A stretch of DNA of 64,000 bases. Origin: a virus. Shown here piece by piece: positions 100 to 13,457 of this stretch (position 1 is the first letter of the stretch; each line of letters starts with the position of its first letter). A program made the translations under genes and the position numbers. The DNA is taken from IMG/VR virus record IMGVR_UViG_3300045999_006495, positions 1-64,000 of that record, one strand, 5' to 3'. The notes under the pieces are model-generated. The model searched no databases and was not told the origin of the DNA. It saw nothing but the letters and a program-made list of their open reading frames with translations.

Positions 100-454
100 A
101 ATCATAATTTATAAATTGACATAATGTAAAATTGACAAATCCTAAAATAAGGGGGTCTTTGACCCCCTTATAATTTTCAATTCTTGACCCCCTTATGACC
201 CCCTTTATTCTTGATTATTCTAGCATAGCACTTGTATAATAAGGGCTAAAACCACTCCCAGAAATAAGGGGGTCAAAGACCCCCTAATCTAGACCCCTCG
301 TCGCGTGCGACTTGCATCGCATTTTCGGTTGTAATAATCCTGTAATCAAAATATCATGTAAATATCAGGTTGAAAAGCTTGCAAAAACTCGGCACTATTG
401 ATATAATAGTATTATCAATAGTAAGTTGACTATTGACAATATGAGGAGGCTACC

Positions 455-628
455 ATGACCCCTATTGAATTGTTTGCCCTGTTCGCCACCCTGTTCCTTA
501 TGTTGAGTGGGTTGCTTGTGACGTGGATTGCCGAGGAGTATGGTCTGCGCCAAAAGATCCTGAGCTTTATCATTTTGGCAGGGGTCCTGTGGGCAATAAT
601 GGTGAGTATTTTGGTCAACATTCTGTAA
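455..628 (+). CDS. 57-aa two-TM membrane protein (MTPIELFALFATLFLML...), missing from the ORF track
   Basis: GAGGAGG RBS at 443-449, TATAAT at 403, terminator at 641-672, two hydrophobic segments. Confidence 0.8.
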   Translation: MTPIELFALFATLFLMLSGLLVTWIAEEYGLRQKILSFIILAGVLWAIMVSILVNIL

Positions 629-640
629 TCCACCTGTAAG

Positions 641-672
641 ATTGATCCCGAGGCAACTCGGGGTCAATTTTT
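641..672 (+). terminator. Intrinsic terminator (GCAA tetraloop hairpin plus U tract)
   Basis: ATTGATCCCGAG-GCAA-CTCGGGGTCAAT followed by a T run. Confidence 0.8.
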
Positions 673-790
673 ATTTATTTTAAGGGGGTCTCAGACCCCC
701 TTTTCAAGACCCCTCGTCGCAGCTCGGTTTCTCATAATCTTCTCATCTAATTTTAATGTATTTTAATCTATTTTGGGCTATAATGGGGTC

Positions 791-827
791 AGTAGGATAA
801 AACTCGGGGTCAGCCCCTACCTGACCT
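791..827 (+). ncRNA. 5'-leader pseudoknot, copy 1
   Basis: GTAGG(792-796)/CCTAC(816-820) and GGGTCAG(807-813)/CTGACCT(821-827); begins about 7 nt after TATAAT (779-784). Confidence 0.6.
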
Positions 828-846
828 ATTTTCAAGGAGCAGTCAG

Positions 847-1128
847 ATGCAAGTAGTAGCAGTAGCCATTGTGGCAACAAGTGGACAAGTCAGTCAGTCA
901 AAGATGATCCTCAAAGAGTCTGCTTATGTCAATGAGCACGATTTGGCAGTCGAGCTGTTTTTGGACTGCCTCGACATGGTAGACGCCTTCGACATCAAGG
1001 GTCAGGTAACTTTTCACTTTGTCTCATATCTTAATGGTATGACCCTTGATGGTCAGGTAGATAATGGTAAGATCCTGCGTGCATACATCAATGACTATAT
1101 GGAGGAGTTATTTCACAAAGCTAGCTAG
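847..1128 (+). CDS. Hypothetical cassette protein, 93 aa (family A)
   Basis: AAGGAG RBS, own promoter and downstream hairpin. Confidence 0.8.
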   Translation: MQVVAVAIVATSGQVSQSKMILKESAYVNEHDLAVELFLDCLDMVDAFDIKGQVTFHFVSYLNGMTLDGQVDNGKILRAYINDYMEELFHKAS

Positions 1129-1170
1129 TTGACCCAAAAGGGGGGACTTGCAAAAAACAAGTCCCCCAAA

Positions 1171-1238
1171 ATCCAAAAGTCAAAAACCAAAAACCAAAAG
1201 TCAAAAAACAAAAGTCAAAAACAGGATCAGAAAAAAAA
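1171..1238 (+). repeat. Degenerate 7-bp A-tract tandem repeat (CAAAAGT/CAAAAAC)
   Basis: Read directly from the sequence. Confidence 0.7.
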
Positions 1239-1471
1239 ATACGGGGGTCATAAGGGGGTCTAAATAAGGGGGTCATAGACCCCCTTTGACTTATTGTCCT
1301 CTGACCCCCTTATTTCATTTTTACAAATCTGGATAATCCGTTCTGGCACTTTATTTATGGGGGTCTATGACCCCCGAATTCAGACCCCTCGTCGCACGCG
1401 ACTCGCAGTTACTCATCCAATTCTAATGTTAGATTAATCCAATTCTAATGTAGGATTGGGATAATGAACAC

Positions 1472-1504
1472 AGTAGGATCTTACTCGGGGCTAGCCTACG
1501 GCCC
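1472..1504 (+). ncRNA. 5'-leader pseudoknot, copy 2
   Basis: GTAGG(1473-1477)/CCTAC(1495-1499) and GGGCT(1488-1492)/GGCCC(1500-1504). Confidence 0.6.
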
Positions 1505-1523
1505 ACCTGGGAGGAATTGACTT

Positions 1524-1829
1524 ATGTCAACTCAAAAAGTGACTGTGGCTGTGACTGTGAGCAACGTGCGTGGTATGTTGGATTGTCAGATGATGGCGTT
1601 GCCCATGCCCTATGACTATGAGGCGTGGCAGTATGCTTCGGAAGTGGTGGAGTGGGTGCGTGCTACTGAGGTGTATCAGGGGTCAGTAGATGCACAGGAT
1701 CCCACCTGCTATGTTACTGTTATGGTAAACCTGAACTCCAAAATTACAATTTCAGAACAATTCATTACAAGTGTAATGTTTATGTCAGAAGTCCGCGAGT
1801 TCTTTGAGGAGGTCATCATCAAGTCATAA
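1524..1829 (+). CDS. Hypothetical cassette protein, 101 aa (family A)
   Basis: GGAGG RBS, promoter, terminator 1844-1873. Confidence 0.8.
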   Translation: MSTQKVTVAVTVSNVRGMLDCQMMALPMPYDYEAWQYASEVVEWVRATEVYQGSVDAQDPTCYVTVMVNLNSKITISEQFITSVMFMSEVREFFEEVIIKS

Positions 1830-1843
1830 TCTAGGATCAGGGT

Positions 1844-1873
1844 GGGGGTGGTAGAAATACCACCCCCTATTTT
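1844..1873 (+). terminator. Intrinsic terminator (GAAA tetraloop)
   Basis: GGGGGTGGTA-GAAA-TACCACCCCC-TATTTT. Confidence 0.8.
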
Positions 1874-2010
1874 GTGTTAAAATTCGGGGGTCAAAAATTT
1901 AAGGGGGTCTAAGACCCCCTTTTCAAGACCCCTCGTCGCTCATAATTTTCTAATCCAATTCTAATCCAATTTTGTAGCATAGCACTTGTATTTTGTGTTA
2001 AAATACTCTC

Positions 2011-2042
2011 GTAGGATTAATTCGGGGCCACGCCTACGGCCC
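2011..2042 (+). ncRNA. 5'-leader pseudoknot, copy 3
   Basis: GTAGG(2011-2015)/CCTAC(2033-2037) and GGGCC(2025-2029)/GGCCC(2038-2042). Confidence 0.6.
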
Positions 2043-2059
2043 GCATACCGGAGGACCGC

Positions 2060-2362
2060 ATGAACCGCATCGCAATCGCAATCACCGCCACCGAGCTCCA
2101 CACCGCCTCGATTCAGGGGCGCACCGTGGCCGACCTGTTCAGCGTCGAGGGTGACGGTAACAGCCCGTACAGCCTGTCGTGGGAGATCCTGTTGCACGCC
2201 GAAAACCTGCGGTCGCAGGTCAACGAGACCGGCCTGTTCGAGTATGTGTTCGCAGTCAAGGCCGGGGACACGACCCACGTCTACATCTCGAACACCGCAG
2301 ACGAAATGCTTCGGTTCAATATTCACCATTTTCTGCGAGAGGCGATTTTCACCGAAGAGTAG
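2060..2362 (+). CDS. Hypothetical cassette protein, 100 aa (family A)
   Basis: GGAGG RBS, TAAAAT -10, terminator ~2376-2406. Confidence 0.8.
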   Translation: MNRIAIAITATELHTASIQGRTVADLFSVEGDGNSPYSLSWEILLHAENLRSQVNETGLFEYVFAVKAGDTTHVYISNTADEMLRFNIHHFLREAIFTEE

Positions 2363-2518
2363 TCAGGATCACCGAGTGGGGGGTGAGAAGTCACCCTCCA
2401 CATTTTAAAATCTAAAATTCGGGGGTCAAAAATTAAAATAAGGGGGTCTAAGACCCCCTATTGACCCCTCGTCGCATTCTCTAATCCAATTCTCATACTA
2501 TTTTGGTACAATTCTCTC

Positions 2519-2557
2519 GTGGAGATAAATACCGGTCGGCTATAGCTCCACCCGACC
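2519..2557 (+). ncRNA. 5'-leader pseudoknot, copy 4 (covariant)
   Basis: GTGGAG(2519-2524)/CTCCAC(2546-2551) and GGTCGG(2534-2539)/CCGACC(2552-2557). Confidence 0.6.
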
Positions 2558-2571
2558 ACCCGAGGGATGTT

Positions 2572-2889
2572 ATGAAAAGTCGAATTCTACCCGCTTTGGT
2601 CGTGCTCATCAACGATGTCACGCCGCTCAACCAGCCACCTGCCCGCACAGGATCTGCGTTTTGGGTCCTCGACATTGACGAGGCGATGTCAATCATCAAC
2701 ACGTTCCGTGCTCGCTACGGGTACTCGAGTGCCGCAATCGCCCTCCACGACGGGCAAACGTACCGCAAAGTCATTTGGTCGACATCAACACTCGACCGTG
2801 GACTTTGGGACATTAGCGACCAAGCGAAGTGGGAGGGGCACGAAAAGATTGTAGCGACCCTCGATGCTCGGAAGCGCAAGCGACGGTAG
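2572..2889 (+). CDS. Hypothetical cassette protein, 105 aa (start moved from 2503), basic C-terminus
   Basis: GAGGGA RBS before ATG 2572; the TTG at 2503 lies inside the promoter. Confidence 0.75.
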   Translation: MKSRILPALVVLINDVTPLNQPPARTGSAFWVLDIDEAMSIINTFRARYGYSSAAIALHDGQTYRKVIWSTSTLDRGLWDISDQAKWEGHEKIVATLDARKRKRR

Positions 2890-2895
2890 GATCAA

Positions 2896-2923
2896 GGAGG
2901 GGCGGGCGAAAGCCCGCTTCTCC
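2896..2923 (+). terminator. Terminator hairpin (GAAA loop)
   Basis: GGAGGGGCGGGC-GAAA-GCCCGCTTCTCC. Confidence 0.7.
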
Positions 2924-3152
2924 AAAATCTTATTTAAGGGGGTCTCAGACCCCCTTTTCAAATTTAAGATTTGACCCCCTTATTTTAAGTCTAAAATAGG
3001 CTAATCCAGCCTAGCACTTTATTTATAAGGGGGTCTATGACCCCCTAATCAAGACCCCCGTATTTTAGCTTAATTTTTCTCATCTAATTTTAATCTACTT
3101 TTGGTATTATACCTATGTAGTCAATAGTTGACTATAGATTTCGGAGGATGAT

Positions 3153-3437
3153 ATGACCGAGTTTACCGTAGACGTGTCCGCCCGTTGTGCCGTGTCCGAG
3201 ACCAGCGACTACTCGATGACGACCGCTTTCAAGATCCAGCGGCTCGGTGACACGACCCTTCAGGCCGCTCTGGCTATCCGGAAGTCGGCTATGTACGAGG
3301 AGTTGCCCGTGGGTTCGGTTATTCAGGGCAACATCCACATGTATACGCTCGAGGACGGGACCCTGTGTCGCATTCCGTTCACTATCACCCGTCAGCCTGA
3401 TGGCGAGCCGAGCTATGTAGAATTGATAGCCGAGTAG
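3153..3437 (+). CDS. Hypothetical cassette protein, 94 aa (family B)
   Basis: GGAGG RBS, promoter, downstream hairpin. Confidence 0.8.
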   Translation: MTEFTVDVSARCAVSETSDYSMTTAFKIQRLGDTTLQAALAIRKSAMYEELPVGSVIQGNIHMYTLEDGTLCRIPFTITRQPDGEPSYVELIAE

Positions 3438-3612
3438 TAACAGATCCCGTGGGGGTGGGCAACCACCTCCACATTCTAAAATCTAAAATTCGGGGGTCAA
3501 AAGGGGGTCTAAGACCCCCTAAAATAAAATATGTTTTTCTCATCTTCTCTTAATGTTGATGCGGTACAATAATAGTGTAGTCAATAGTTGACTATATGAA
3601 ACGGAGGCGGAT

Positions 3613-3861
3613 ATGTCACTCGAGCTAAACGTCGTATTCAAGGGGAGCGAGATGATGGTACCGGTCGATCGGTTGGGTCAGGTCAAAGATGGGATCATCA
3701 AGACGGTGACCTCGACCACCGAGTACTCGGGTATGATGCTGGGCGAGACTGCGACAGGGTCAGCGTTTCTCGAGGTCCCGCATGTCGGGCCTGTGTTGGA
3801 GATCCTCTTCGAGGTCAAGCGGGTAACGTGGTCAGGTAATCCCGAGGTGCGTGTATGGTAG
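3613..3861 (+). CDS. Hypothetical cassette protein, 82 aa (family B)
   Basis: GGAGG RBS, TACAAT -10. Confidence 0.8.
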   Translation: MSLELNVVFKGSEMMVPVDRLGQVKDGIIKTVTSTTEYSGMMLGETATGSAFLEVPHVGPVLEILFEVKRVTWSGNPEVRVW

Positions 3862-3911
3862 TCCTCGTGTTTGCGGCAGTAGCCATCGTGGTCGCTCTCA
3901 TCCTAGATTAA
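3855..3911 (+). CDS. 18-aa hydrophobic micropeptide MVVLVFAAVAIVVALILD
   Basis: GAGGTG RBS at 3844-3849; overlaps the previous stop codon and lies before the terminator hairpin. Confidence 0.5.
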   Translation: MVVLVFAAVAIVVALILD

Positions 3912-4083
3912 TCAAGCACACGGACCACCTTCGGGTGGTTTCGTGTCAATCTTTTATAAGGGGGTCTATGACCCCCTAAAATCCAAAAAACGATTCTCAT
4001 CATTTCTTAATCTGTTTTTTGGCACGGTAGTGTTATGCGTGGTATACTAGTATAGGATTAGATAACAGTATACGGAGGCGGAT

Positions 4084-4437
4084 ATGAAAAAGCGGATTGC
4101 ATACTATGTGGCGGAATTGACCCAAACGGAAACGGCATTTAAGAACGGCCTGTCGAGTGTAAATCCCGAGGGTGACTATTTCTACGAGGGTCCCGAGGTG
4201 ATCCCATCCCGCACTAGCGTACTCGTCTATAAGAAAACGCCATTTACTGCGAAACAAATAGCCGAGTTGGAGTGTACTGTTGAAAGTTCAAAGATTATCA
4301 GCATAACCGAACTTGACACAATATACACTACATTTGATGAACCGAAGCCGAGTATCTTTATCGGGCTCGTGCTCAAATACGGCAACTTTATCCGTGATGA
4401 GCGTAAGTTCCGTAAGGCGGTCATGAACGAGGAGTAG
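4084..4437 (+). CDS. Hypothetical cassette protein, 117 aa
   Basis: GGAGG RBS, TGGTATACT extended -10. Confidence 0.8.
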   Translation: MKKRIAYYVAELTQTETAFKNGLSSVNPEGDYFYEGPEVIPSRTSVLVYKKTPFTAKQIAELECTVESSKIISITELDTIYTTFDEPKPSIFIGLVLKYGNFIRDERKFRKAVMNEE

Positions 4438-4631
4438 ACAACACACAACACAACATACTCGGTAGCATGGTCAGGGACCGTGCTACCATCATATTTTTTT
4501 ACAGATCCTAGAATAAGGGGGTCTCAGACCCCCTAAAATACAAAATCCAATTTCTCATCTTCTCTTAATGTTGGCGTTATATAATAATAGTGTAGTCAAG
4601 TTGACTATACACTACCGAATGGAGGAACCGT

Positions 4632-4835
4632 ATGAAAATCGCTCGCATTTTGCTGGACGAGGCTAGTTTCACCGAAGACGAGTTGCAGGAGTATGTGGAG
4701 GTCGAGCCTAGCGAGGACGATGTGGCCGACATGATGCGTGGATGGGACGAGGTCGAGAGCAACTTGCCCGAGGTGGACTACATCGAGCAGTTCGAGAACG
4801 CCCTGCTTTACGGAGACGGTGACGTTCCGTGGTAG
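4632..4835 (+). CDS. Very acidic 67-aa protein (DNA-mimic candidate)
   Basis: GGAGG RBS; 21 D/E versus 3 K/R. Confidence 0.8.
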   Translation: MKIARILLDEASFTEDELQEYVEVEPSEDDVADMMRGWDEVESNLPEVDYIEQFENALLYGDGDVPW

Positions 4836-4999
4836 TCGATAGTTGGATGGTGGGTCAATCGGCCCACCGTCCTCTATGCAGAGTATAAGGGGGTCTCAGA
4901 CCCCCTTATTATTCTCTCACAATTTCTCATCTCGTTCTAATGTTGATGGTATATACTATAGATGGTTAGATAAGAGTACTTGATTATATGGAGGCGGTT

Positions 5000-5317
5000 A
5001 TGAGCAACGAGAATTCGGTTCAGGGATATCATGCCGAGGTATTGTACATGCTAGACGGGACCCCGATTAAAATCCAACTTGCGAACTATGTCAACATTAC
5101 GGACATGGTGAATAGCGCATGGAGACTTGTTGATACTCTTAAGAATGCGAACGTCAGTAAGTTCTACTTCGCATACTATCACAAGGGCGGGCTATATTCT
5201 ATCGCCACATACAAAATTAAAAACGGTATTTCGCATGATATAGGTTTTTACGGGACTAGCCCGTTTTCAATCCTACACATAGACGAGCTAGACATCAGCG
5301 CATGGGACAACGCCTAG
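5000..5317 (+). CDS. Hypothetical cassette protein (start moved from 4988)
   Basis: GGAGG RBS overlaps the 4988 ATG and precedes ATG 5000. Confidence 0.75.
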   Translation: MSNENSVQGYHAEVLYMLDGTPIKIQLANYVNITDMVNSAWRLVDTLKNANVSKFYFAYYHKGGLYSIATYKIKNGISHDIGFYGTSPFSILHIDELDISAWDNA

Positions 5318-5465
5318 ACTAACGGGAGCACGGGCCTACGGGTCCGTTGCTCTATCTGTACAATAAGGGGGTCTGAGACCCCCTTAAATTACTCTCATCT
5401 TGTTCTAATATTATTCTGTTATATTGTAAGTGTGATAAATATTTTATCACTTAATGGAGGCGGAT

Positions 5466-5741
5466 ATGATACAGTATGCGGTAGTCGCCATCAAAGATGA
5501 CACGGGTCGCTGGAACGAAGTATACGAGACTACGGACCATTACAGCACAGGATTTGTCTATTCTATGAGCGAAGTAAAAGCGCAAGAAGCGTGCGAAAAG
5601 CACGGTTGGGATTTCTGCGAAGTGATGATTGCGGCGTGTACTATCGAGCTCGGTGGCTATCCTGTCAAGTTGAACACTAACGTGTACTATTCATTCAAGT
5701 ATGAATATACACGAGAGAAGACGGACGAGGATAATGAATAA
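5466..5741 (+). CDS. Hypothetical acidic cassette protein (start moved from 5454)
   Basis: GGAGG RBS precedes ATG 5466. Confidence 0.75.
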   Translation: MIQYAVVAIKDDTGRWNEVYETTDHYSTGFVYSMSEVKAQEACEKHGWDFCEVMIAACTIELGGYPVKLNTNVYYSFKYEYTREKTDEDNE

Positions 5742-5891
5742 GTAGTGATAGTGTGGGGCGAGGCTATTGCCAGACCCCACCGTAATCTTAAGGGGGTCTA
5801 TGACCCCCTAAAACTATCTGCTATTTTCTCATCTTGTTTTAATGTTGTTACTGTATACTATAAAGGGTTAGATAATTATATGGAGGCTAGT

Positions 5892-6155
5892 ATGAAATAC
5901 GTGATGGATTGGGTCGGACTTAAGACGGGGGCCACGGTAACGATTCAGCAATTCGGTAACTTTCGCGACCTGCACTACGACTACGATACTGCCGAAGGTA
6001 TCCGTGCATTACATTACATGATGGAGAACCGTATGGTCGGTGGTCGTGCTTTTGTCAACTTTACCTGCGGATGTGTGTATACGTACAAGTGTGACGGCTA
6101 CCTGTCTAACGAGGACTTGTGCGATGCTCACGAGGAGATAGCGAACCTAGATTAA
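5892..6155 (+). CDS. Hypothetical cassette protein with Cys/His motif (CGC...C...CxxH); start moved from 5745
   Basis: The longer ORF would run through the palindrome and promoter; GGAGG precedes ATG 5892. Confidence 0.75.
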   Translation: MKYVMDWVGLKTGATVTIQQFGNFRDLHYDYDTAEGIRALHYMMENRMVGGRAFVNFTCGCVYTYKCDGYLSNEDLCDAHEEIANLD

Positions 6156-6319
6156 CATAAATGTGGCGGATGACTTGTGTCGTCCCCACATGTTTTTGAT
6201 AAGGGGGTCTGAGACCCCCTAAAAATTGCCGTATTTTCTCATCTCGTTTTAATGTTTATCTGTTAATATATAAATGTAGTCAATAGTTGACTATGTAGCA
6301 CTTAATAAGGAGCGACACA

Positions 6320-6727
6320 ATGGGACTTGACATGTATGCACATGTGCTCACCACCGAGGGCGCAGACTTGATTGCGAGTGGCGACTATGTTTGGGATGAC
6401 CTGCAACCGCACATCGTGGAAACGAACTTTTGGTACTGGCGGAAACATCACTCGTTACACGGTTGGATGCAACGCTGCTACGCAAAAAAGACGGGTATCG
6501 ACGAGCCAAACGAGTTTAATTGCATCTATGTGGAGCTTTTGGAGACGGATTTGGATGACTTGTTCGATGATATTAGCGAGGACCGACTAACGCCAACCGA
6601 GGGATTTTTCTTTGGTACACAATTCCCGTACACAGACGAGGATAAAGTTGGCGACTTCGAGTTTATTGAAAAAGCTCGAGAGCATATCAAAAACGGACAT
6701 CATGTATTTTACTCCTCGTGGTGGTAG
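6320..6727 (+). CDS. Conserved phage protein of unknown function (MGLDMY...YWRK...GFFFG...YSSWW type)
   Basis: Motif set recognised from widespread phage/mobile-element hypothetical proteins; AAGGAG RBS. Confidence 0.8.
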   Translation: MGLDMYAHVLTTEGADLIASGDYVWDDLQPHIVETNFWYWRKHHSLHGWMQRCYAKKTGIDEPNEFNCIYVELLETDLDDLFDDISEDRLTPTEGFFFGTQFPYTDEDKVGDFEFIEKAREHIKNGHHVFYSSWW

Positions 6728-6906
6728 ATTAGTCTAGGATTAGGGCCGCTCTCATAAAGAGGGCGGTCCCTGTCTACCTACAAAATAAGGGGGTCTGAGA
6801 CCCCCTAAAACTGAAGATTAAAATTAGATTAGTAATTTAATTTTAGTATTGACTTTTGGTATATGCTAGTGTAGAATATAAATGTAAGTTAGTTAAAGGA
6901 GCGATT

Positions 6907-7107
6907 ATGAGTCGATTGTTCGAATTGTTTGTTGACCATCAGGGGACAAAATGGCGCATTGACTATTATTGCGATTCGTTACAGGCACTACTTGACGAGG
7001 GTCGCTTAGACGATGCAAAAAAGTCTATCGAGTTGCGCGAAAGTTTGTTGTCGTTAGTTGAATTGATTAACACTATTGAGGAGATTAAGGATGCGAGTAA
7101 CAATTAA
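6907..7107 (+). CDS. Hypothetical protein (start moved from 6856)
   Basis: AAGGAG RBS before ATG 6907. Confidence 0.7.
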   Translation: MSRLFELFVDHQGTKWRIDYYCDSLQALLDEGRLDDAKKSIELRESLLSLVELINTIEEIKDASNN

Positions 7108-7336
7108 ACCGGCTATTTGGAGCGATGATATCCATGACTTTGTCGAAGTCAATTCTTATGATTACATAAGTACTACAGAAGATAATGCTAGCTCGGCCTG
7201 TGCTAACTTCGCTATTAAGTATCTTCGTAAGCACCGTATGAAATCCCAAACATTCGAATTTTGGATTATTGACAATGTCTACGGTGAATTGTTGGAAGTA
7301 GTGCGATATGACTATGGTATTGACACGCTAGATTAG
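7091..7336 (+). CDS. Hypothetical protein (start moved from 7076)
   Basis: GAGGAG RBS, coupled to the upstream gene. Confidence 0.65.
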   Translation: MRVTIKPAIWSDDIHDFVEVNSYDYISTTEDNASSACANFAIKYLRKHRMKSQTFEFWIIDNVYGELLEVVRYDYGIDTLD

Positions 7337-7512
7337 AGGATGGCCCCGAGGATTAATTCCAACGGGCCTGATTAAAATAAGGGGGTCTGAGACCCCCTTA
7401 TACTACACTGATTTTCTCATCTAATTTTAATGTAATATGTGTCGAATATATGTTAATATAAAGATGGTTAGATATGACTAACCGCAGGAATTGTAAGAAC
7501 GAGGAGACGAAG

Positions 7513-8136
7513 ATGCGTAAGCAACAGGTGAAGCGTGAGACGGTAATCCGTGAGTTGGCGACTACTTTTGCCACGGATGTCGAGTTGGTTGCGAAAGTGA
7601 CAGGGGTCGAGCCGAGTAAGATTACGAAACCGCTGTCGTATTTGGTCGAGGCTACGGATGCCGAGTTGGCACAATGGTTTACGACTCCACAGATCCAGCG
7701 GTTGCGTGCCGCCTTCGAATTGTCAAAGCGTGCAACGTTCGCATTACCCGAAGTCATCCGTGCACCATCGGACGCCGCTGCTTTTCTTAAGGCGACATAT
7801 CAGGATAAGTCACAGGAGTATTTTGTAGTGTTGTGTCTCAATACGAAGAATCGGATTATTAGCGTAGTCGAGCTTTACAAGGGGTCGCTTAATTCATCGC
7901 TTCTTCGTGTGGGCGAGGTATTTAGCGAGGCTATCCGTGTGAACGCCTGTGCTATCATCATCGCTCATAATCATCCATCAGGGGACCCGACACCGTCTGC
8001 CGATGATATTCAAGTCACACGGGATATTGCGGCCGCAGGTAAATTGTTGGATATCGATGTGCTCGACCATCTTGTAATCGGTAGTGACGGATGGATTAGT
8101 TTGCGAGAGCGTGGATTGGGCTTCGGTAACATCTAA
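7513..8136 (+). CDS. radC: RadC-family JAB/MPN domain protein
   Basis: QEYFVVLCLNTKN, AHNHPSGDPTPSADD and DVLDHLVIG motifs; GAGGAG RBS before ATG 7513. Confidence 0.93.
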   Translation: MRKQQVKRETVIRELATTFATDVELVAKVTGVEPSKITKPLSYLVEATDAELAQWFTTPQIQRLRAAFELSKRATFALPEVIRAPSDAAAFLKATYQDKSQEYFVVLCLNTKNRIISVVELYKGSLNSSLLRVGEVFSEAIRVNACAIIIAHNHPSGDPTPSADDIQVTRDIAAAGKLLDIDVLDHLVIGSDGWISLRERGLGFGNI

Positions 8137-8311
8137 ACGGTTAAGTAGGATGGGGGCGCAAGCCCCTGTTCTACACATCATGAATAAGGGGGTCTGAGAC
8201 CCCCTTAAACTATCAAAGTTTTCTCATCAATTTTTAATGTTATATGCTATGTATCTATGCTATACTATAAATGGTTAGGTAAGAGTAATTAAGCAACGAA
8301 AGGGAGCGGTT

Positions 8312-8503
8312 ATGAAACAGGTGCAGGAGATGGAGCAGACGATTAATCGGCGTATCATCAATCCGTTCAAGTCGGTTCTTGACCTGATGACGGTAGGACA
8401 CTCCCACCGTGACGGGGCAATAATCCGAGTTATGTTGGCGACCTATCTGATTACATGGTTAGACGGGTATCGGCAGTATTGGAACACACAGATCGGTAAG
8501 TAG
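8312..8503 (+). CDS. Hypothetical protein, 63 aa
   Basis: AGGGAG RBS, TATACT -10. Confidence 0.7.
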   Translation: MKQVQEMEQTINRRIINPFKSVLDLMTVGHSHRDGAIIRVMLATYLITWLDGYRQYWNTQIGK

Positions 8504-8517
8504 AAAGCGAGTATGCG

Positions 8518-8766
8518 ATGATTAGTGTAATGATTAGCGGTGGCGACCGTTCTACAATGGTAAACGGTTTTGCGTATGACTTGTCCCGTAGTGTTATTTT
8601 TCTTAAGTTTCGCTCCTCTGATAAGTGGTATGCGAAGTCAGTACCGGTCGATGTGTTGATGGAGGCTATCGGTGTATGGTTAGACACCGACCAATCTTTT
8701 GGTAAGTGGGCACACAGTAAGAGCATTACGAAAGATATGGTATTTTTTACTGACGTGGATTTGTAG
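8518..8766 (+). CDS. Hypothetical protein, 82 aa, weakly KTSC-like
   Basis: S..v..f.YD....l.l.F....Y....VP...S.Gk pattern; second gene of the unit. Confidence 0.55.
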   Translation: MISVMISGGDRSTMVNGFAYDLSRSVIFLKFRSSDKWYAKSVPVDVLMEAIGVWLDTDQSFGKWAHSKSITKDMVFFTDVDL

Positions 8767-8964
8767 TAAGTAGCCCCGAGGAGATTAGTCTCCGAGGGGT
8801 TGTTTGTTTTAAGGGGGTCTGAGACCCCCTTTTGCTACAATGCCGTTTTCAACTTTTTGTTTTAATCTTACTCTCATTTTACTCTTATCACTTTTTAATA
8901 TGGGCTGTGTGCAATTATGATACAATGAACATGTAAGTTAATTCTAGCCCGTGAGGAGCTACCT

Positions 8965-9672
8965 ATGCGGTTTGTTATCGGTTCTCAAAATGTTAAACTT
9001 TCGGAAGACGGTAGTGTTATTGCGACCTATAGTAAAACGGGGTCAACTTGTCCGTCATCATGTATGTATCACCCGACACCTAACGAGTATGCAAAAGAGA
9101 AGCGTACCGCCTTTGGTCGTGTTACGACCTGCTATACTCTTAAGGGCAATACCCGATATCACCAAAAACATTTATCGACAGTAGATGCGTTAAAAGTTCG
9201 GGTAGACGTGGTCAAGTTTTTAGAATTGCGTAATTCAACAAAGCGGATAAAAGGCGGTACAAAAGCAAAGCGTATAACCGCTATTCGTTGGAACGTCTCG
9301 GGTGATGTATTTGATAATAACATCCCTAGTGTGGAGTATATTGATGCAATAGTGTGGGCGTGTGGTAAATTGTCCGAAGCAGGGGTCAAGTCAATCGGAT
9401 ATACACACGGTTGGATGTTGCCCGAATTACAACCGCTCAAAAAATACTTTATTGCATCGTGTGACACAGTAGACGAAGTATTACAGGCGCAAGCTACGGG
9501 ATGGATGACTATGATTACGAAGTCGCCTAAAATGGATTTGTCGAAGCTTAAGATAGCCGATTGCCCTAATCAGATAACGGATGGCCGTATCAAGTGTTCA
9601 AAATGTATGCTGTGCTCGGTGGATAATCTACCAAAGTTTAGTTTACGAGTAATAGGTATGGAATATCACTAA
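8965..9672 (+). CDS. Cys-rich putative Fe-S protein (phage Gp88-like)
   Basis: TCPSSC...CY, RWNVSGD, YTH, ASCD and CPxQ...CxxCxLC motifs; GAGGAG RBS. Confidence 0.6.
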   Translation: MRFVIGSQNVKLSEDGSVIATYSKTGSTCPSSCMYHPTPNEYAKEKRTAFGRVTTCYTLKGNTRYHQKHLSTVDALKVRVDVVKFLELRNSTKRIKGGTKAKRITAIRWNVSGDVFDNNIPSVEYIDAIVWACGKLSEAGVKSIGYTHGWMLPELQPLKKYFIASCDTVDEVLQAQATGWMTMITKSPKMDLSKLKIADCPNQITDGRIKCSKCMLCSVDNLPKFSLRVIGMEYH

Positions 9673-9827
9673 AAAGTAGTGCGGTGGCGTACGGTTAATC
9701 GTAGGCCTACTGCCGTAAATATTTTAAGGGGGTCTGAGACCCCCTTTTGCTACAGGCAAATTAACCTAGATTACTACTATACAATGTAGTAATAAAAACC
9801 TAGCACTTAATAATAAAAAATTGCAGA

Positions 9828-9900
9828 AATCCAAAATCCAAAAATTAAAAAACTAAAATTAAAAATCAGAACATCAGGATCTAAAATTAAAAATAGAAAA
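9828..9900 (+). repeat. Degenerate 7-bp A-tract repeat (AAAATCC/AAAATTA)
   Basis: Read directly from the sequence. Confidence 0.65.
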
Positions 9901-9934
9901 GTCCCCCTACACTTTAAGTAAGGGGACAATTCGG

Positions 9935-10180
9935 TTATTCCTCTTCGGCTACATAGATTGTACCGACTTTCTTAAACACATGCGGATTATACTCTTTGCC
10001 CACATCCCATGTGCTATACTCTACGGGCCTGAATGTAATCAGTATGTATGTATATAACTCTGCCGGTGTTTCTTTCTTGAATAACTCTGCTCGTTTGTCA
10101 GCGTAGTATGAAGAACTACAGCGGCTATACCAATACTTTTTATAATCGGGCCCGATAATCCAAATATCATACTCGAACAT
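9935..10180 (-). CDS. Hypothetical protein, 81 aa
   Basis: Abuts the upstream minus-strand gene; terminator hairpin ~9901-9927. Confidence 0.7.
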   Translation of the reverse strand: MFEYDIWIIGPDYKKYWYSRCSSSYYADKRAELFKKETPAELYTYILITFRPVEYSTWDVGKEYNPHVFKKVGTIYVAEEE

Positions 10181-10789
10181 TCACTCTTTCCTCGCTTTGC
10201 TATAGATATATTCTTGGAACCACTTCTCGTCTAGATAGGCGAGCACACTCTTACAATGAGTAGAAATACCGTCTAAAACCTCCTCGTTTAGTAGTGATAG
10301 ATGTACTAATGTATCATAATCTAGTGTATGTAGGTCAATTACTGAATAGTAGTTAAAACCTAAAATCATTTTCAGAAGTTGATAGCGCATACTTTCCGCA
10401 TACAGGTTATCCCATAAATGTTTAGCATACTCACTCTGTATACGTCCTACACTATCCATATCTAACCAATTTTCAGTATAACCCTCACGAGTGTTAAGCC
10501 GTCGTTTTAATTCCTTAATGAGTAGGTGACCGTGTACAGTAATTCTATCAGGGTCAATACGGAGAACCCAATACTCTAAACCATCGCTAGTAGTAGTGTA
10601 TAGCCCCGTGTGATTGTATACCATGTCATAGGTACTCTGAATGTGACCGCACAACCAAAGCCAGTTAGCTCGCTCAGGTGAGTACTCATCCATGTCGTAG
10701 GGGCTGATAATCAAATCCAAAACTTGCTTGTTGTTTCTGAAATTAAACTTCTTAAAATCAGAAATTGAAATTAGAACAGGCATCTCCAT
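10181..10789 (-). CDS. Hypothetical protein, 202 aa
   Basis: AGGAGGTG RBS and an array-type promoter on the minus strand at 10820-10870. Confidence 0.8.
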   Translation of the reverse strand: MEMPVLISISDFKKFNFRNNKQVLDLIISPYDMDEYSPERANWLWLCGHIQSTYDMVYNHTGLYTTTSDGLEYWVLRIDPDRITVHGHLLIKELKRRLNTREGYTENWLDMDSVGRIQSEYAKHLWDNLYAESMRYQLLKMILGFNYYSVIDLHTLDYDTLVHLSLLNEEVLDGISTHCKSVLAYLDEKWFQEYIYSKARKE

Positions 10790-10990
10790 AACACACCTCC
10801 TATAATTTAACTACATATAAAGTATAACATACAAAATACCAAAAAAGATTAGAGGAATATTAGAATTGAAAAACAAATAAGGGGGTCTAAGACCCCCTAA
10901 AACTACAGCCGCTTTCTAATCATTCTCTAATGTTATTTCTGTTTGTATGTGTTATACTACTTGTGGGTTAAGTTTTAGTAGGAGTTAGTA

Positions 10991-11782
10991 ATGATTACAG
11001 AAGTTCGGTTAATCCCAAACGGGGATGGTCGCTTTAGCCTGATGGTTAACGACAAATGTGTGGGTGTTGCGGTTCCTAATTCAGAAGGTACGCTTGGTTA
11101 CGACATCATGCAAGACGACTACATCCCTATTGACTTCACGGCACCAACGGACACTCGCTCTGCGGTGGCCACGATGCTCAAATGGAACACAGGCTCGCAC
11201 TTCTTGGACTCGGGTGGTTTTGGTGGTCGTTGGTGGCAAATGCGTAGGGACGCTGATTTAGATGCCGAGCCCGAGGCTTATCTTGACGAGGACGGCTACC
11301 ACCGTAACCTGTATCCATTTTTGGTAGAACACTTGCGATTTGATGACCGAATGCAACGTATCTTCGATGCTTTTGACTTCCAACTGCCGACTTTCAATTA
11401 CTTTGAAGTGTTGGAAAAGTTTTGTAAGCGGTATGACATTTTGGTGACGGCTATGGGAAACACTTATAACGAAGAGACGGTGCTTCGTGGTGGTTTTCAG
11501 TACTATGAATTGGAACTTGCTGGCGGTGAGACTTGTCTCGCTATCATGTCGCACAACGGGGCTGATATCCGTGGTGGTTATAGCAAACCGTTCTTCTTCT
11601 CTAACTCTATTGAAGATTTGTGGGTCGACATCAATAGCGGTGATGTATGGTGCGATACTTGCGATAACCGCTGGTACTGGGATGGTTACCGCTGGGAGAC
11701 TGATACGGCTACTTTTAACTTCCTTGACAAATGGGACGGTTCACAGTATAATTGTGAATGTGGAGGTAAAGTGACATGTTAG
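10991..11782 (+). CDS. Conserved phage hypothetical protein (HFLDSGG, NTYN, HNGADIRGGY motifs; C-terminal CxxC/CxC)
   Basis: AGGAG RBS; motif-rich long ORF. Confidence 0.8.
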   Translation: MITEVRLIPNGDGRFSLMVNDKCVGVAVPNSEGTLGYDIMQDDYIPIDFTAPTDTRSAVATMLKWNTGSHFLDSGGFGGRWWQMRRDADLDAEPEAYLDEDGYHRNLYPFLVEHLRFDDRMQRIFDAFDFQLPTFNYFEVLEKFCKRYDILVTAMGNTYNEETVLRGGFQYYELELAGGETCLAIMSHNGADIRGGYSKPFFFSNSIEDLWVDINSGDVWCDTCDNRWYWDGYRWETDTATFNFLDKWDGSQYNCECGGKVTC

Positions 11783-12135
11783 CCGAGGCTATTGATAAGC
11801 TTAACGATGGTGTTTGTGATGGTTGGTACCTCGACAATCCCTATGTAGTCTTGCGCTACATAGGGTACGAGGGAGAGGATCAAGACCCACTCATTATGGA
11901 AACCGATTGGTATAGTATGGCGTGGGTTGCTCTTATGCAAGTTTTACCCGATGCTTGTATATTGACTATTATGCGAGAGTCCGATTGGTTTATGAAGGCG
12001 GCACATCAAAAGTATTTTGAGTTAGTAGGCGAGGCCGAGGAATTGTGCGATTATAATTTTACCGTGGAAGTATTTGATGGCGACATCATTCTAGTTAAGA
12101 AAGGCGAAGTAGATGCACCCACAGACGATAATTGA
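11776..12135 (+). CDS. Acidic hypothetical protein
   Basis: GGAGG RBS, coupled to the upstream gene. Confidence 0.75.
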   Translation: MLAEAIDKLNDGVCDGWYLDNPYVVLRYIGYEGEDQDPLIMETDWYSMAWVALMQVLPDACILTIMRESDWFMKAAHQKYFELVGEAEELCDYNFTVEVFDGDIILVKKGEVDAPTDDN

Positions 12136-12454
12136 TTATGTCAATTTTTCATCAAAGGAACGTCGTAAGGATTTGGCCCGATTGGTTCGTGGTTCATTCA
12201 CTGAAAAACCGCTGGCTCGGTATAAGGACACCGAGATTTGGGGCCACGGTTGGGAGTTTGATGACGATGCTACTTGGTGGTCAATTGTCTACAAGGGGCG
12301 TACAATTTATTCTAGCGAGTTGTTTGATGATTTGAGTAATCCTGATAATTATGAGTTGGACCGGGATAGTAACGAGATAGAAGAACAATTAGGCGAAGTA
12401 TTAGGATGGTTTACAGATTTACACATGTATACAAGATATGTAGAATCGTGGTAA
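12113..12454 (+). CDS. Hypothetical protein
   Basis: Coupled ORF followed by a terminator hairpin ~12460-12492. Confidence 0.7.
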   Translation: MHPQTIIDYVNFSSKERRKDLARLVRGSFTEKPLARYKDTEIWGHGWEFDDDATWWSIVYKGRTIYSSELFDDLSNPDNYELDRDSNEIEEQLGEVLGWFTDLHMYTRYVESW

Positions 12455-12623
12455 GCACTTGCCCCTGCCGAGAAATCAGTAGGGGCGGTTTTATAATAAG
12501 GGGGTCTGAGACCCCCTTAAACTACCCGTAGCTTTCTAATCTTCCTCTAATGTTATTTGCTGTAATACCTGATATAATAAAGATGTTGGTAGTTGACCAA
12601 CTAATGAATTAAGGAGAGCGGAA

Positions 12624-13058
12624 ATGAGTAAGGACATGCGTGAGAAGTTGATGGATTTGATGGACGAGTTGAACTCAATCAAGGACAATCTGGACGATGC
12701 GGACACTTCATCGCTCAGCCGTGACTTGGAGAGTTTGGCTAGTGACATCGCAGGTGTGAGCGACACTGTTAGCAGTGCTCAGGATGACTTGGACAGCATT
12801 CGTGACCAACTCGACAACATCCTGACCGAGATGGACTTTAGCCGACCAACACCGCAGAAGCCCCCACACATTTCAGAAGTTGGTGAGTTGGCACAGTTGG
12901 TACACCACGACCGTAATCAGCCCGAGATTCTTGCTGGTTACATGGTGACTAACCCCGCAAAGTTCTGGCTCGCAGTTACTTACAATTTGGCAACCAATCC
13001 GTTTGGTAACGTCGAGTTGATTAAGTTCATGCAAACGATGGGGCAATACATTGATTAA
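12624..13058 (+). CDS. Protein with acidic N-terminal coiled coil
   Basis: Heptad L/I pattern over residues 1-70; AAGGAG RBS. Confidence 0.8.
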   Translation: MSKDMREKLMDLMDELNSIKDNLDDADTSSLSRDLESLASDIAGVSDTVSSAQDDLDSIRDQLDNILTEMDFSRPTPQKPPHISEVGELAQLVHHDRNQPEILAGYMVTNPAKFWLAVTYNLATNPFGNVELIKFMQTMGQYID

Positions 13059-13323
13059 GGAGCTAGTATCTAGCTACCGAGGGACCCCCACCCTTTGTCT
13101 GGTGGGGGACTCTCTCCCTCGGGAGCCGTGGTTATGGAAACAGTATGCGTTTTTGTCAAAGTATGCAAAGCCCGTGGCCAACATACCTGACAACGATGCT
13201 AATCTTACTGACAATTTGGCTTTTGTGGTCCACGAGATGTTTTGGGATGTAAACGAGCAGTTAGAGAAGTATGCATTAGAATTACAGATAACCGCTGGCA
13301 ATATGTACCTATGCCGCAAGTAA
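13051..13323 (+). CDS. Hypothetical protein
   Basis: Coupled ORF ending before the last palindrome. Confidence 0.6.
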   Translation: MIKELVSSYRGTPTLCLVGDSLPREPWLWKQYAFLSKYAKPVANIPDNDANLTDNLAFVVHEMFWDVNEQLEKYALELQITAGNMYLCRK

Positions 13324-13457
13324 ATAGAGAGCATACCCATCCCCGGGTGTGCTCTGTGTTTTATAAGGGGGTCTCAGACCCCCTTAAACTTATGTCTACT
13401 GCGACTTGGCCAAACAAAAGCCCCCCTCCGGTTAAGGAGAGGGGCACTTGTGTTATA

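What the first reader, a model, noticed from the sequence alone, without database searches (positions are those of the whole stretch)
791..2557. Covarying pseudoknot at the predicted +1 of four consecutive cassette mRNAs
Seen: four leaders start 6-7 nt after the -10 hexamer and share the order S1a, AU-rich loop, S2a, short loop, S1b, S2b with no linker between S1b and S2b. The stem pairs are GTAGG/CCTAC + GGGTCAG/CTGACCT (792-827); GTAGG/CCTAC + GGGCT/GGCCC (1473-1504); GTAGG/CCTAC + GGGCC/GGCCC (2011-2042); and GTGGAG/CTCCAC + GGTCGG/CCGACC (2519-2557). Both stems change with compensation, which argues for RNA structure. Each ends just upstream of the RBS. Inference: a compact 5'-end cap against RppH/RNase J or a phage-triggered host-RNA shutoff, or a new riboswitch or protein-binding element. 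I do not recognise it as a known family.
Basis: partly seen in the sequence, partly recalled or inferred. Interest (0 to 1): 0.8.

Follow-up and report, generated by a model that had tools for sequence, protein, structure and literature searches.

The report
Pseudoknot leader on phage early mRNAs
Four early genes of an uncultured 78-kb phage, and two genes of its nearest relative, start their messages with a small RNA knot that tucks the first bases into a hairpin loop; it most likely shields the message's 5' end from decay enzymes, but this is untested.

Summary
All four elements read exactly as described. Each starts 6-7 nt after a -10 box, has no linker between S1b and S2b, and ends 4-8 nt before a strong Shine-Dalgarno site.

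New evidence supports a real RNA fold. The closest relative in IMG/VR (76 kb, portal 91% identical) has two more copies at the same promoter distance. They have different stems that still pair: ATAGGC/GCCTAT + GGGC/GCCC, and GTAG/CTAC + GGCGG/CCGCC. They sit in front of ORFs that show no similarity to the one window ORF each was compared with. Over six copies S1 has two compensated positions and S2 has five different helices. Loop sequences are not conserved.

Eight sibling cassettes in the window carry a plain hairpin at the same +1 position, against 1.7 expected from shuffles. So 12 of 19 early leaders have a paired 5' end.

The best reading is a portable promoter-leader module whose 5'-terminal structure hides the 5' end from RppH, RNase J or RNase E-type attack. 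The function and the transcription start are inferred, not shown.

No Rfam match was found, and there is no look-alike elsewhere in this scan. The scan has noted other, unrelated phage leader pseudoknots on other DNA. A riboswitch is unlikely. Six copies are too few for R-scape-type statistics.

The parts
792..827 (+). Leader knot c1: S1a 792-796, L1 797-806, S2a 807-813, L2 814-815, S1b 816-820, S2b 821-827
   Evidence: Read directly. The -10 TATAAT lies at 779-784.
1473..1504 (+). Leader knot c2: S1a 1473-1477, S2a 1488-1492, S1b 1495-1499, S2b 1500-1504
   Evidence: The -10 is TGG-GATAAT at 1460-1465.
2011..2042 (+). Leader knot c3: S1a 2011-2015, S2a 2025-2029, S1b 2033-2037, S2b 2038-2042
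   Evidence: The -10 is TGT-TAAAAT at 1999-2004.
2519..2557 (+). Leader knot c4: S1a 2519-2524, S2a 2534-2539, S1b 2546-2551, S2b 2552-2557
   Evidence: The -10 is TGG-TACAAT at 2507-2512. The nearest counterpart is L229:3538-3569 in the relative G001.
729..784 (+). Promoter of c1: phased CTCAT/YTAAT repeats plus the -10 box. The same architecture precedes c2 (1411-1465), c3 (1949-2004) and c4 (2470-2512).
   Evidence: The same motif and spacing occur in relatives G001, G002, G003, G004, G006 and L246.
835..849 (+). SD (AGGAG, 835-839) and ATG (847) of c1. The others are SD 1509-1515 with ATG 1524, SD 2050-2055 with ATG 2060, and SD 2562-2567 with ATG 2572.
847..2889 (+). Four small ORFs of unknown function behind the knots: 847-1128, 1524-1829, 2060-2362 and 2572-2889
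   Evidence: No Pfam or PHROG family. The c3 ORF has one 79% homolog, P0002.
414..436 (+). Sibling 5'-terminal hairpin of cassette 0 (TCAATAGT/ACTATTGA). Plain hairpins also start at +1 at 3117-3135, 3577-3595, 4592-4608, 5432-5450, 6276-6294, 7466-7483 and 12585-12601.
   Evidence: The cassette 0 hairpin is kept with compensation in G001, in front of an orthologous membrane protein.

Best explanation
The element is a cis-acting RNA fold at the very 5' end of early phage mRNAs. It is part of a portable promoter-leader module. Host RNA polymerase starts 6-7 nt after an often TG-extended -10 box. The first 4-6 transcribed bases (S1a, built on the family-wide GTAG start) pair with the 3' side of the loop of a G+C-rich hairpin (S2). 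S1b runs straight into S2b, so the two helices can stack into one 9-12 bp rod. The RNA's 5' terminus would then sit at the helix junction with 0-1 unpaired base. The 2-6 nt L2 would bridge S1 much as the 5' side of an anticodon loop does, and the 8-13 nt A/U-rich L1 (9-10 nt in the window copies) would run back along the rod. The rest of the leader is only 4-8 nt plus a strong SD that a ribosome would cover. This leaves no single-stranded entry site for 5'-end-dependent decay enzymes (RppH, then RNase J or RNase E). The fold would also insulate the ribosome-binding site from whatever ORF the module is placed in front of. Shown: the complementarity, its position, its covariation, and its recurrence before unrelated ORFs. 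Inferred: the start site, simultaneous formation of both helices, the stacking geometry, and the protective function.
For: 1. All four copies are as described.
2. Two more copies lie in relative G001 (L229:2839-2873 and 3538-3569), 6 nt after TG-extended -10 boxes and 6-7 nt before an SD, with L3 of 0 or 1.
3. Covariation over six copies: S1 position 1 changes G:C to A:U, and position 3 changes A:U to G:C. S2 has five different helices. Between c4 and G001b, both partners of pairs are lost together.
4. The ORFs behind the two G001 copies show no similarity to the window ORFs they were compared with (c4 and c2), so the leader is kept independently of the gene.
5. Eight of 19 sibling leaders have a plain hairpin of at least 6 bp starting at +1 or +2. 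A ninth hit, in c2, is a weak 5-bp stem. Shuffles give 1.7 +/- 1.3, with a maximum of 6. Two of these hairpins are kept with compensation in G001.
6. +1 is G in 16 of 19 cassettes. Relatives with plain leaders also start GTAG or GTAA, which supports the start-site assignment.
7. A rough Dirks-Pierce-type estimate puts the knot 1.6-4.4 kcal/mol below the best nested fold.
8. Literature: 5' hairpins and bound ribosomes stabilise B. subtilis mRNAs, and BsRppH needs at least 2 unpaired 5' nt (PMC3997798). A knotted viral RNA can stop RNase J1 mechanically (PMC5760640).
Against: No transcript data exist, so the start site rests only on promoter geometry. The promoters lack a canonical -35 and are missed by the simple sigma-70 scan. 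There are only six copies from two phages, and three share an identical S1. S1a overlaps a start-site motif that is conserved for other reasons. A linker of 0 nt is impossible for a classical H-type stack, so the fold needs the alternative stacking, which is inferred and not modelled. The energy estimate ignores sterics. More distant relatives manage with short unstructured leaders, so 5' structure is not essential to the family. The host is unknown, and so is its decay machinery.
Confidence: 0.45

Rival explanations
1. The element controls translation. The fold sits 4-8 nt upstream of the SD, on the 30S platform side. It would act as a standby or enhancer structure, or as the binding site of a phage or host protein that shuts off early translation, as gp32 does on its own 5' pseudoknot.
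For: The distance from the knot to the ATG is a constant 14-20 nt in all six copies. T4 gene 32 is a precedent (PMC3014915). The scan has noted leader knots next to start codons in other phages (unchecked notes).
Against: Apart from the start-site motif GTAG, no sequence is conserved that a specific protein could read. The ORFs behind the module are unrelated, so autoregulation by the product is excluded. Sibling cassettes use plain hairpins of many different sequences at the same place, which fits a generic physical role better.
Confidence: 0.2
2. Only the S2 hairpin is functional. The S1 complementarity is incidental to the conserved GTAG start, so there is no pseudoknot.
For: Nested folding predicts S2 alone in c1 and c3. 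GTAG is conserved at +1 even in unstructured leaders of relatives. Three of six S1 helices are identical.
Against: When S1a departs from GTAGG, S1b follows: GTGGAG/CTCCAC in c4 and ATAGGC/GCCTAT in G001a. S1b always abuts S2b (L3 of 0 or 1) although L2 varies from 2 to 6 nt. A 6-nt perfect complement at a fixed place has a chance of about 1 in 4000.
Confidence: 0.15
3. The element acts at the DNA level. The interleaved inverted repeats around +1 would be operators or promoter-escape elements bound by a regulator of the early-to-middle switch.
For: The repeats overlap +1. The sibling palindrome GTAGTCAA-TAG-TTGACTAT is sequence-identical in three cassettes (plus a variant lacking the TAG in a fourth), like an operator.
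Against: The stems differ in sequence between copies while pairing is kept. G:U pairs occur only in the mRNA sense (c1, c2, and the first pair of several sibling hairpins). Interleaved repeats with variable spacing are not a usual operator form.
Confidence: 0.08
4. The element is a small riboswitch aptamer, a ligand-binding H-type knot like preQ1-I, SAM-II or guanidine-III.
For: The size and knot topology resemble the smallest aptamers, and it lies in a 5' leader next to an SD.
Against: No Rfam hit even at E<=10. Loops L1 and L2 have no invariant nucleotide. The SD is not part of the fold. The downstream genes are unrelated ORFs of unknown function.
Confidence: 0.03

Closest known systems
5'-terminal stem-loop mRNA stabilisers (E. 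coli ompA and papA leaders; B. subtilis aprE leader; ermC and SP82-type 5' stabilisers), reviewed in PMC3997798
   Same: The structure begins at or within 1-2 nt of the 5' end of the mRNA and is followed closely by a strong ribosome-binding site. Sibling cassettes here use plain hairpins of exactly this kind at the same position.
   Different: The 5' end is paired into the loop of a downstream hairpin (a knot), not into a simple hairpin. No half-life data exist. The host is unknown.
T4/T2/RB69 gene 32 translational operator pseudoknot (PMC3014915)
   Same: It is an H-type knot at the 5' edge of a phage mRNA leader, and gene 32 mRNA is unusually stable.
   Different: The gene 32 knot is a classical coaxial H-type fold followed by a long A/U-rich tract on which gp32 polymerises, and it serves one autoregulated gene. 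Here the linker pattern is permuted (L3 = 0), only 4-8 nt separate it from the SD, and the module precedes unrelated ORFs.
PeSL (promoter-early stem-loop) cassettes of T4-type phages RB49 and phi1 (PMC2839356)
   Same: Repeated small regulatory modules (a strong host-type early promoter plus a stem-loop) flank ORFs of unknown function in a plastic region. The same module is found before different genes.
   Different: PeSL stem-loops act as terminators or attenuators and lie around or upstream of the promoter boxes. Here the structure is in the transcribed leader and is a knot. The phage lineage is unrelated.
Exoribonuclease-resistant RNAs (xrRNA) of flaviviruses and plant viruses (PMC5760640)
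   Same: Both are compact knotted folds in which the 5' end is held inside the structure. An xrRNA blocks bacterial RNase J1 in vitro, so a mechanical block of this enzyme by RNA is possible.
   Different: xrRNAs are about 70 nt three-way junctions with a ring around the 5' end, and they lie inside 3' UTRs. This element is 32-39 nt (31-39 nt counting the G001 copies), has two helices, and there is no evidence of a ring.

Membership tests
Any Rfam 15 family | Match to a covariance model at gathering score | tested here: not met
   Only two tRNAs in the whole window. There is no hit on the leaders at E<=10.
Classical H-type pseudoknot (Pleij) | Two helices with crossing strand order S1a-S2a-S1b-S2b | tested here: met
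   Complementarity in six copies.
Classical H-type pseudoknot (Pleij) | S2a abuts S1b, and a loop of several nt between S1b and S2b crosses the shallow groove of S1 | tested here: not met
   The gap from S1b to S2b is 0 nt (1 nt in G001b), and the gap from S2a to S1b is 2-6 nt. The fold therefore needs the permuted stacking, with S1b-S2b as the continuous strand. That stacking is inference.
5'-terminal stem-loop stabiliser | The helix starts within about 2 nt of the transcript 5' end | tested here: inconclusive
   This is met for the predicted start, 6-7 nt after the -10, with G at +1 in 16 of 19 cassettes.
5'-terminal stem-loop stabiliser | It lengthens mRNA half-life | not testable with these tools
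   This needs rifampicin chase or reporter assays.
T4 gene 32-type operator | The knot is followed by a long unstructured A/U-rich tract over the RBS, and the product binds its own leader | tested here: not met
   Only 4-8 nt lie before the SD. The ORFs behind homologous leaders are unrelated.
PeSL-type mobile regulatory cassette | A repeated early promoter plus structure module flanks ORFs of unknown function and is found before different genes | tested here: met
   There are 19 cassettes in the window. The same promoter architecture occurs in six related records. The leader is conserved while the ORFs are unrelated.
PeSL-type mobile regulatory cassette | The stem-loop acts as a terminator placed at or upstream of the promoter boxes | tested here: not met
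   The knot lies downstream of +1 and has no U-tract, except for a weak one in c1. Separate terminator hairpins precede each promoter.
Riboswitch aptamer (preQ1-I, SAM-II, guanidine-III type) | Invariant unpaired nucleotides form a ligand pocket | tested here: not met
   L1 and L2 share no invariant base over six copies.
STAB-SD / polypurine 5' stabiliser | A free SD-like sequence near the 5' end that pairs with 16S rRNA | tested here: inconclusive
   S1a contains AGGA or GGAG, but it is predicted to be paired with S1b.

The most novel reading that the evidence does not exclude
A minimal (about 35 nt) bacterial-virus counterpart of xrRNAs. The knot buries the triphosphate 5' end at a helix junction and mechanically blocks RppH and 5'-to-3' decay by RNase J. 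It would be carried on a portable promoter-leader module that can stabilise any ORF placed behind it.
Probability: 0.3. Interest if true: 0.75.

Novelty: new variant of a known kind. Interest (0 to 1): 0.5.

Why it matters
If the fold protects the 5' end, it would be a new and very small structural solution to 5'-end-dependent mRNA decay in bacteria. It would be a ready-made portable stabiliser and insulator part for gene expression. It would also explain how a phage keeps a shuffled set of early genes expressed whatever their sequence. This phage and its closest relative use structured 5' ends, while more distant relatives with the same promoters do not. That contrast gives a natural comparison for testing what selects for such structures.

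Tried and rejected
- Rfam at gathering score and at E<=10 found nothing on the leaders.
- GenBank phages gave no match by megablast, blastn or tblastn, using the region, the c3 protein and the portal.
- An IMG/VR pattern for the c1-c3 leader gave two hits, both chance matches that appear to lie inside coding sequence, read by eye.
- The invariant palindrome in IMG/VR gave single chance copies only.
- Palindrome plus GTAGGAT in the metagenome and genome collections gave nine chance hits, including an unrelated family in L135, L138 and L139.
- The c3 protein homolog P0002 (79% identity, 22-kb contig) could not be located in viral or metagenome contigs.
- A single-protein search with the DNA polymerase found no relatives. 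An alignment of portal homologs did.
- MAFFT could not align the stems. I therefore counted covariation from coordinates and built no covariance model.
- The promoter motif is absent from the relatives with about 57% portal identity.
- I considered tRNA-like or RNase P mimicry, because ACC follows S2b in three of six copies. I dropped it for lack of any further support.
- The simple sigma-70 scan does not see the cassette promoters, because they lack a -35.
Full report
WHAT THE WINDOW IS. The window is the left 64 kb of a single-contig, 77,847-bp phage genome. The genome has (CCTTGACC)n-type repeats at both ends. It encodes a portal, DNA polymerase, DnaB-type helicase, class II ribonucleotide reductase and RtcB-like protein. 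It has no close relative among GenBank phages.

The first 13.4 kb is an array of about 20 single-gene units on the + strand. Each unit has its own terminator hairpin, an invariant palindrome GGGGGTC-N3-GACCCCC (24 copies), and phased CTCAT/YTAAT repeats. These are followed by an often TG-extended -10 box, a short leader, a strong GGAGG-type SD and a small ORF with no Pfam or PHROG family. This agrees with two other first-reader notes on the same window.

THE OBSERVATION. The four claimed elements read exactly as written. S1a starts 7, 7, 6 and 6 nt after the -10 hexamers. L1 is 9-10 nt and A/U-rich, L2 is 2-6 nt, and S1b runs into S2b with no linker. The fold ends 14-19 nt before the ATG.

A scan of the whole genome for this general shape gives 25 (+) and 22 (-) hits, about one per 3.3 kb per strand. 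On the listed + strand, the four claimed hits are the only ones that sit at a cassette promoter. Ordinary nested folding does not return the knot, as expected. A rough Dirks-Pierce-type estimate puts the knot at -9.3 to -14.2 kcal/mol. The best nested fold of the same stretch is -7.1 to -9.8. That estimate ignores sterics.

CONTEXT INSIDE THE WINDOW. I aligned 19 cassette promoters on their -10 boxes. The seventh base after the box is G in 16 of them, and in two more (c1, c2) G is the eighth. Eight leaders begin with a plain hairpin of at least 6 bp at that G or one base later. Examples are GTAGTCAA-TAG-TTGACTAT, GTGATAAA/TTTATCAC, GGTTAG/CTAACC, GTTGGT/ACCAAC and TCAATAGT/ACTATTGA.

Dinucleotide shuffles give 1.7 +/- 1.3 such leaders, with a maximum of 6 in 500 trials. 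The observed count by the same test is 9, including a weak 5-bp hit in c2. Random positions in the array give 10%. With the four knots, 12 of 19 early leaders have their predicted 5' end base-paired. So the knots are one form of a general habit of this phage.

RELATIVES. Direct searches for the leader, the palindrome and the promoter motif in IMG/VR, metagenomes and genomes gave only chance hits. The one homolog of a cassette protein (P0002) could not be located.

The portal has 177 homologs. An alignment of them recovered 65 IMG/VR loci. The closest long record is G001 (IMGVR_UViG_3300042691_020140). It is 76,099 bp, has direct terminal repeats, and its portal is 91% identical. It shares parts of the early region at 66-79% DNA identity and has the same promoter architecture.

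G001 has two knot leaders in the same part of its array, soon after the first cassette. That first cassette encodes a small membrane protein orthologous to the window's first cassette.
- G001a (L229:2839-2873) has ATAGGC/GCCTAT and GGGC/GCCC, with L3 = 0.
- G001b (L229:3538-3569) has GTAG/CTAC and GGCGG/CCGCC, with L3 = 1.

Both start 6 nt after a TG-extended -10, and each ends 6-7 nt before an SD.

COVARIATION. The six copies show the following:
- S1 position 1 is G:C five times and A:U once.
- S1 position 3 is A:U five times and G:C once.
- S1 has 4-6 pairs.
- S2 is a different helix in five of the six copies.

c4 and G001b are visibly the same leader. Their L1 reads ATAAATACC against ACAAAACC, and the 3' flank reads ACCCGAGGGATG against ACCCTGGGGGATG. 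Their stems differ by one compensated substitution and by loss of both partners of pairs. L1 and L2 have no invariant base.

Six copies from two phages are too few for an R-scape-type test. MAFFT could not align the stems, so I built no covariance model. The pattern, however, is what selection on pairing produces.

THE MODULE IS PORTABLE. The ORF behind G001b has no detectable similarity to the c4 ORF, and the ORF behind G001a has none to the c2 ORF. The leader is therefore conserved independently of the gene. This rules out autoregulation by the product. It matches the logic of the PeSL cassettes of T4-type phages, where promoter plus stem-loop modules flank shuffled ORFs of unknown function (PMC2839356).

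WHERE 5' STRUCTURE IS ABSENT. More distant relatives (G002, G003, G004, G006 and L246) have portals 71-76% identical to the window's where this was measured (G002-G004). They keep the CTCAT/TAAT promoter and the GTAG or GTAA start. Their leaders are 23-26 nt and unstructured, with 0-1 hairpins among 6-17 leaders each. Two points follow. GTAG at +1 is a promoter or start-site feature, and S1b has evolved to match it. And 5' structure is a speciality of the window phage and G001, not a requirement of the family.

GEOMETRY (inference). A classical H-type knot needs several nucleotides between S1b and S2b to cross the shallow groove of S1, so 0 nt excludes that form. The alternative is that S1b and S2b form one continuous strand, with S1 stacked on the loop end of S2. 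The seven-base loops of c1 and c2 then have two bridging bases and five stacked, paired bases. That is the layout of an anticodon loop read by a complementary strand, or of a kissing loop. L1 must return along the 9-12 bp rod.

This amounts to a circular permutation of the classical knot. Its consequence is that the RNA's first base lies at the helix junction, not on a free tail. The conserved 0-1 nt linker, set against a variable L2, fits this. It would be unexplained if the two helices were independent alternatives.

MECHANISM. In B. subtilis, a hairpin, ribosome-binding site or bound protein at or near the 5' end stabilises long downstream regions. BsRppH needs at least two unpaired 5' nucleotides and prefers G at position 2 (PMC3997798). 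Comparable 5'-terminal base-pairing effects are cited there for E. coli. A knotted viral RNA stops RNase J1 in vitro by a purely mechanical block (PMC5760640).

The leaders here consist only of a 5' structure, 4-8 nt, a strong SD and the start codon. There is no naked entry site. I therefore favour 5'-end protection combined with insulation of the ribosome-binding site in a shuffled cassette system, at confidence 0.45.

The rivals are:
- a translation-control or protein-binding element (0.2);
- a functional S2 hairpin with incidental S1 complementarity (0.15);
- a DNA operator (0.08);
- a riboswitch (0.03).

LIMITS. The host is unknown.

RELATION TO THE REST OF THE SCAN. No look-alike sequence has been noted elsewhere. 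Other agents have reported unrelated leader pseudoknots in other phages. These were mostly next to start codons in Bacteroidota phages. One, in crAss-related phages, was described as a hairpin whose loop pairs with its own 5' flank. Another was in a hot-spring phage. Those are unchecked notes. They suggest that small leader knots are a recurring phage device, and this would be the 5'-terminal, SD-compatible form.

VERDICT. It is an undescribed small cis-RNA structure with cross-genome support, best seen as a new variant of the known 5'-terminal stabiliser theme. Its function is untested.

Noticed in passing
window 1832, 2364, 2887, 6735, 8146 (also 1222, 9875): A YAGGATY motif lies just after the stop codon and directly before the terminator hairpin of several cassettes. 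The same motif (GTAGGAT) opens the c1-c3 leaders, and TAGGAT lies close to the cas7 leader start at 4053. The same word at both ends of the transcripts is unexplained.
   Followed up: partly
window 291, 707, 1382, 1926, 2462: The box (A/T)GACCCCTCGTCGC follows the invariant palindrome only in the first five cassettes, the ones with the knot leaders plus cassette 0.
   Followed up: no
window 148-13386 versus L229 1-19901: The invariant palindrome GGGGGTC-N3-GACCCCC (24 copies) is not shared by the closest relative G001. G001 instead has variable GGGGGAGYC...GRCTCCCC terminator-like hairpins, often two or three in a row. The invariance is therefore specific to this phage.
   Followed up: partly
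window 414-436 versus L229 about 1884-1907; window 12585-12601 versus L229 17067-17083: Plain 5'-terminal hairpins are kept with compensatory change between the two phages. TCAATAGT/ACTATTGA corresponds to TCAAAAAGT/ACTTTTTGA, in front of orthologous membrane proteins. GTTGGT/ACCAAC corresponds to GTTAG/CTAAC.
   Followed up: partly
window 2060-3861 and 4632-4835: Five cassette ORFs have 56-58% G+C in a 41% G+C genome, while their promoters and leaders stay A/T-rich. This suggests recently imported ORFs placed behind resident regulatory modules.
   Followed up: no
window 1505-1507, 2558-2560; L229 3570-3572: ACC directly follows S2b in three of six knot leaders (c2, c4, G001b), which recalls a tRNA-like 3' end next to a stacked 10-12 bp helix. 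It may simply reflect shared ancestry.
   Followed up: no
L231 (minus strand) promoter motifs at 5069, 5521, 5902 of the reverse complement: Relative G003 has three long (more than 60 nt) leaders or small RNAs behind the same promoter type, with extended internal complementarity. I did not analyse them.
   Followed up: no
L135, L138, L139: Three metagenome contigs share a conserved stretch of about 120 nt starting GGGGGGTCAACGACCCCC and continuing with GGCTAAAGCCGGGAGC. It is unrelated to this phage and was found by chance with the palindrome pattern.
   Followed up: no
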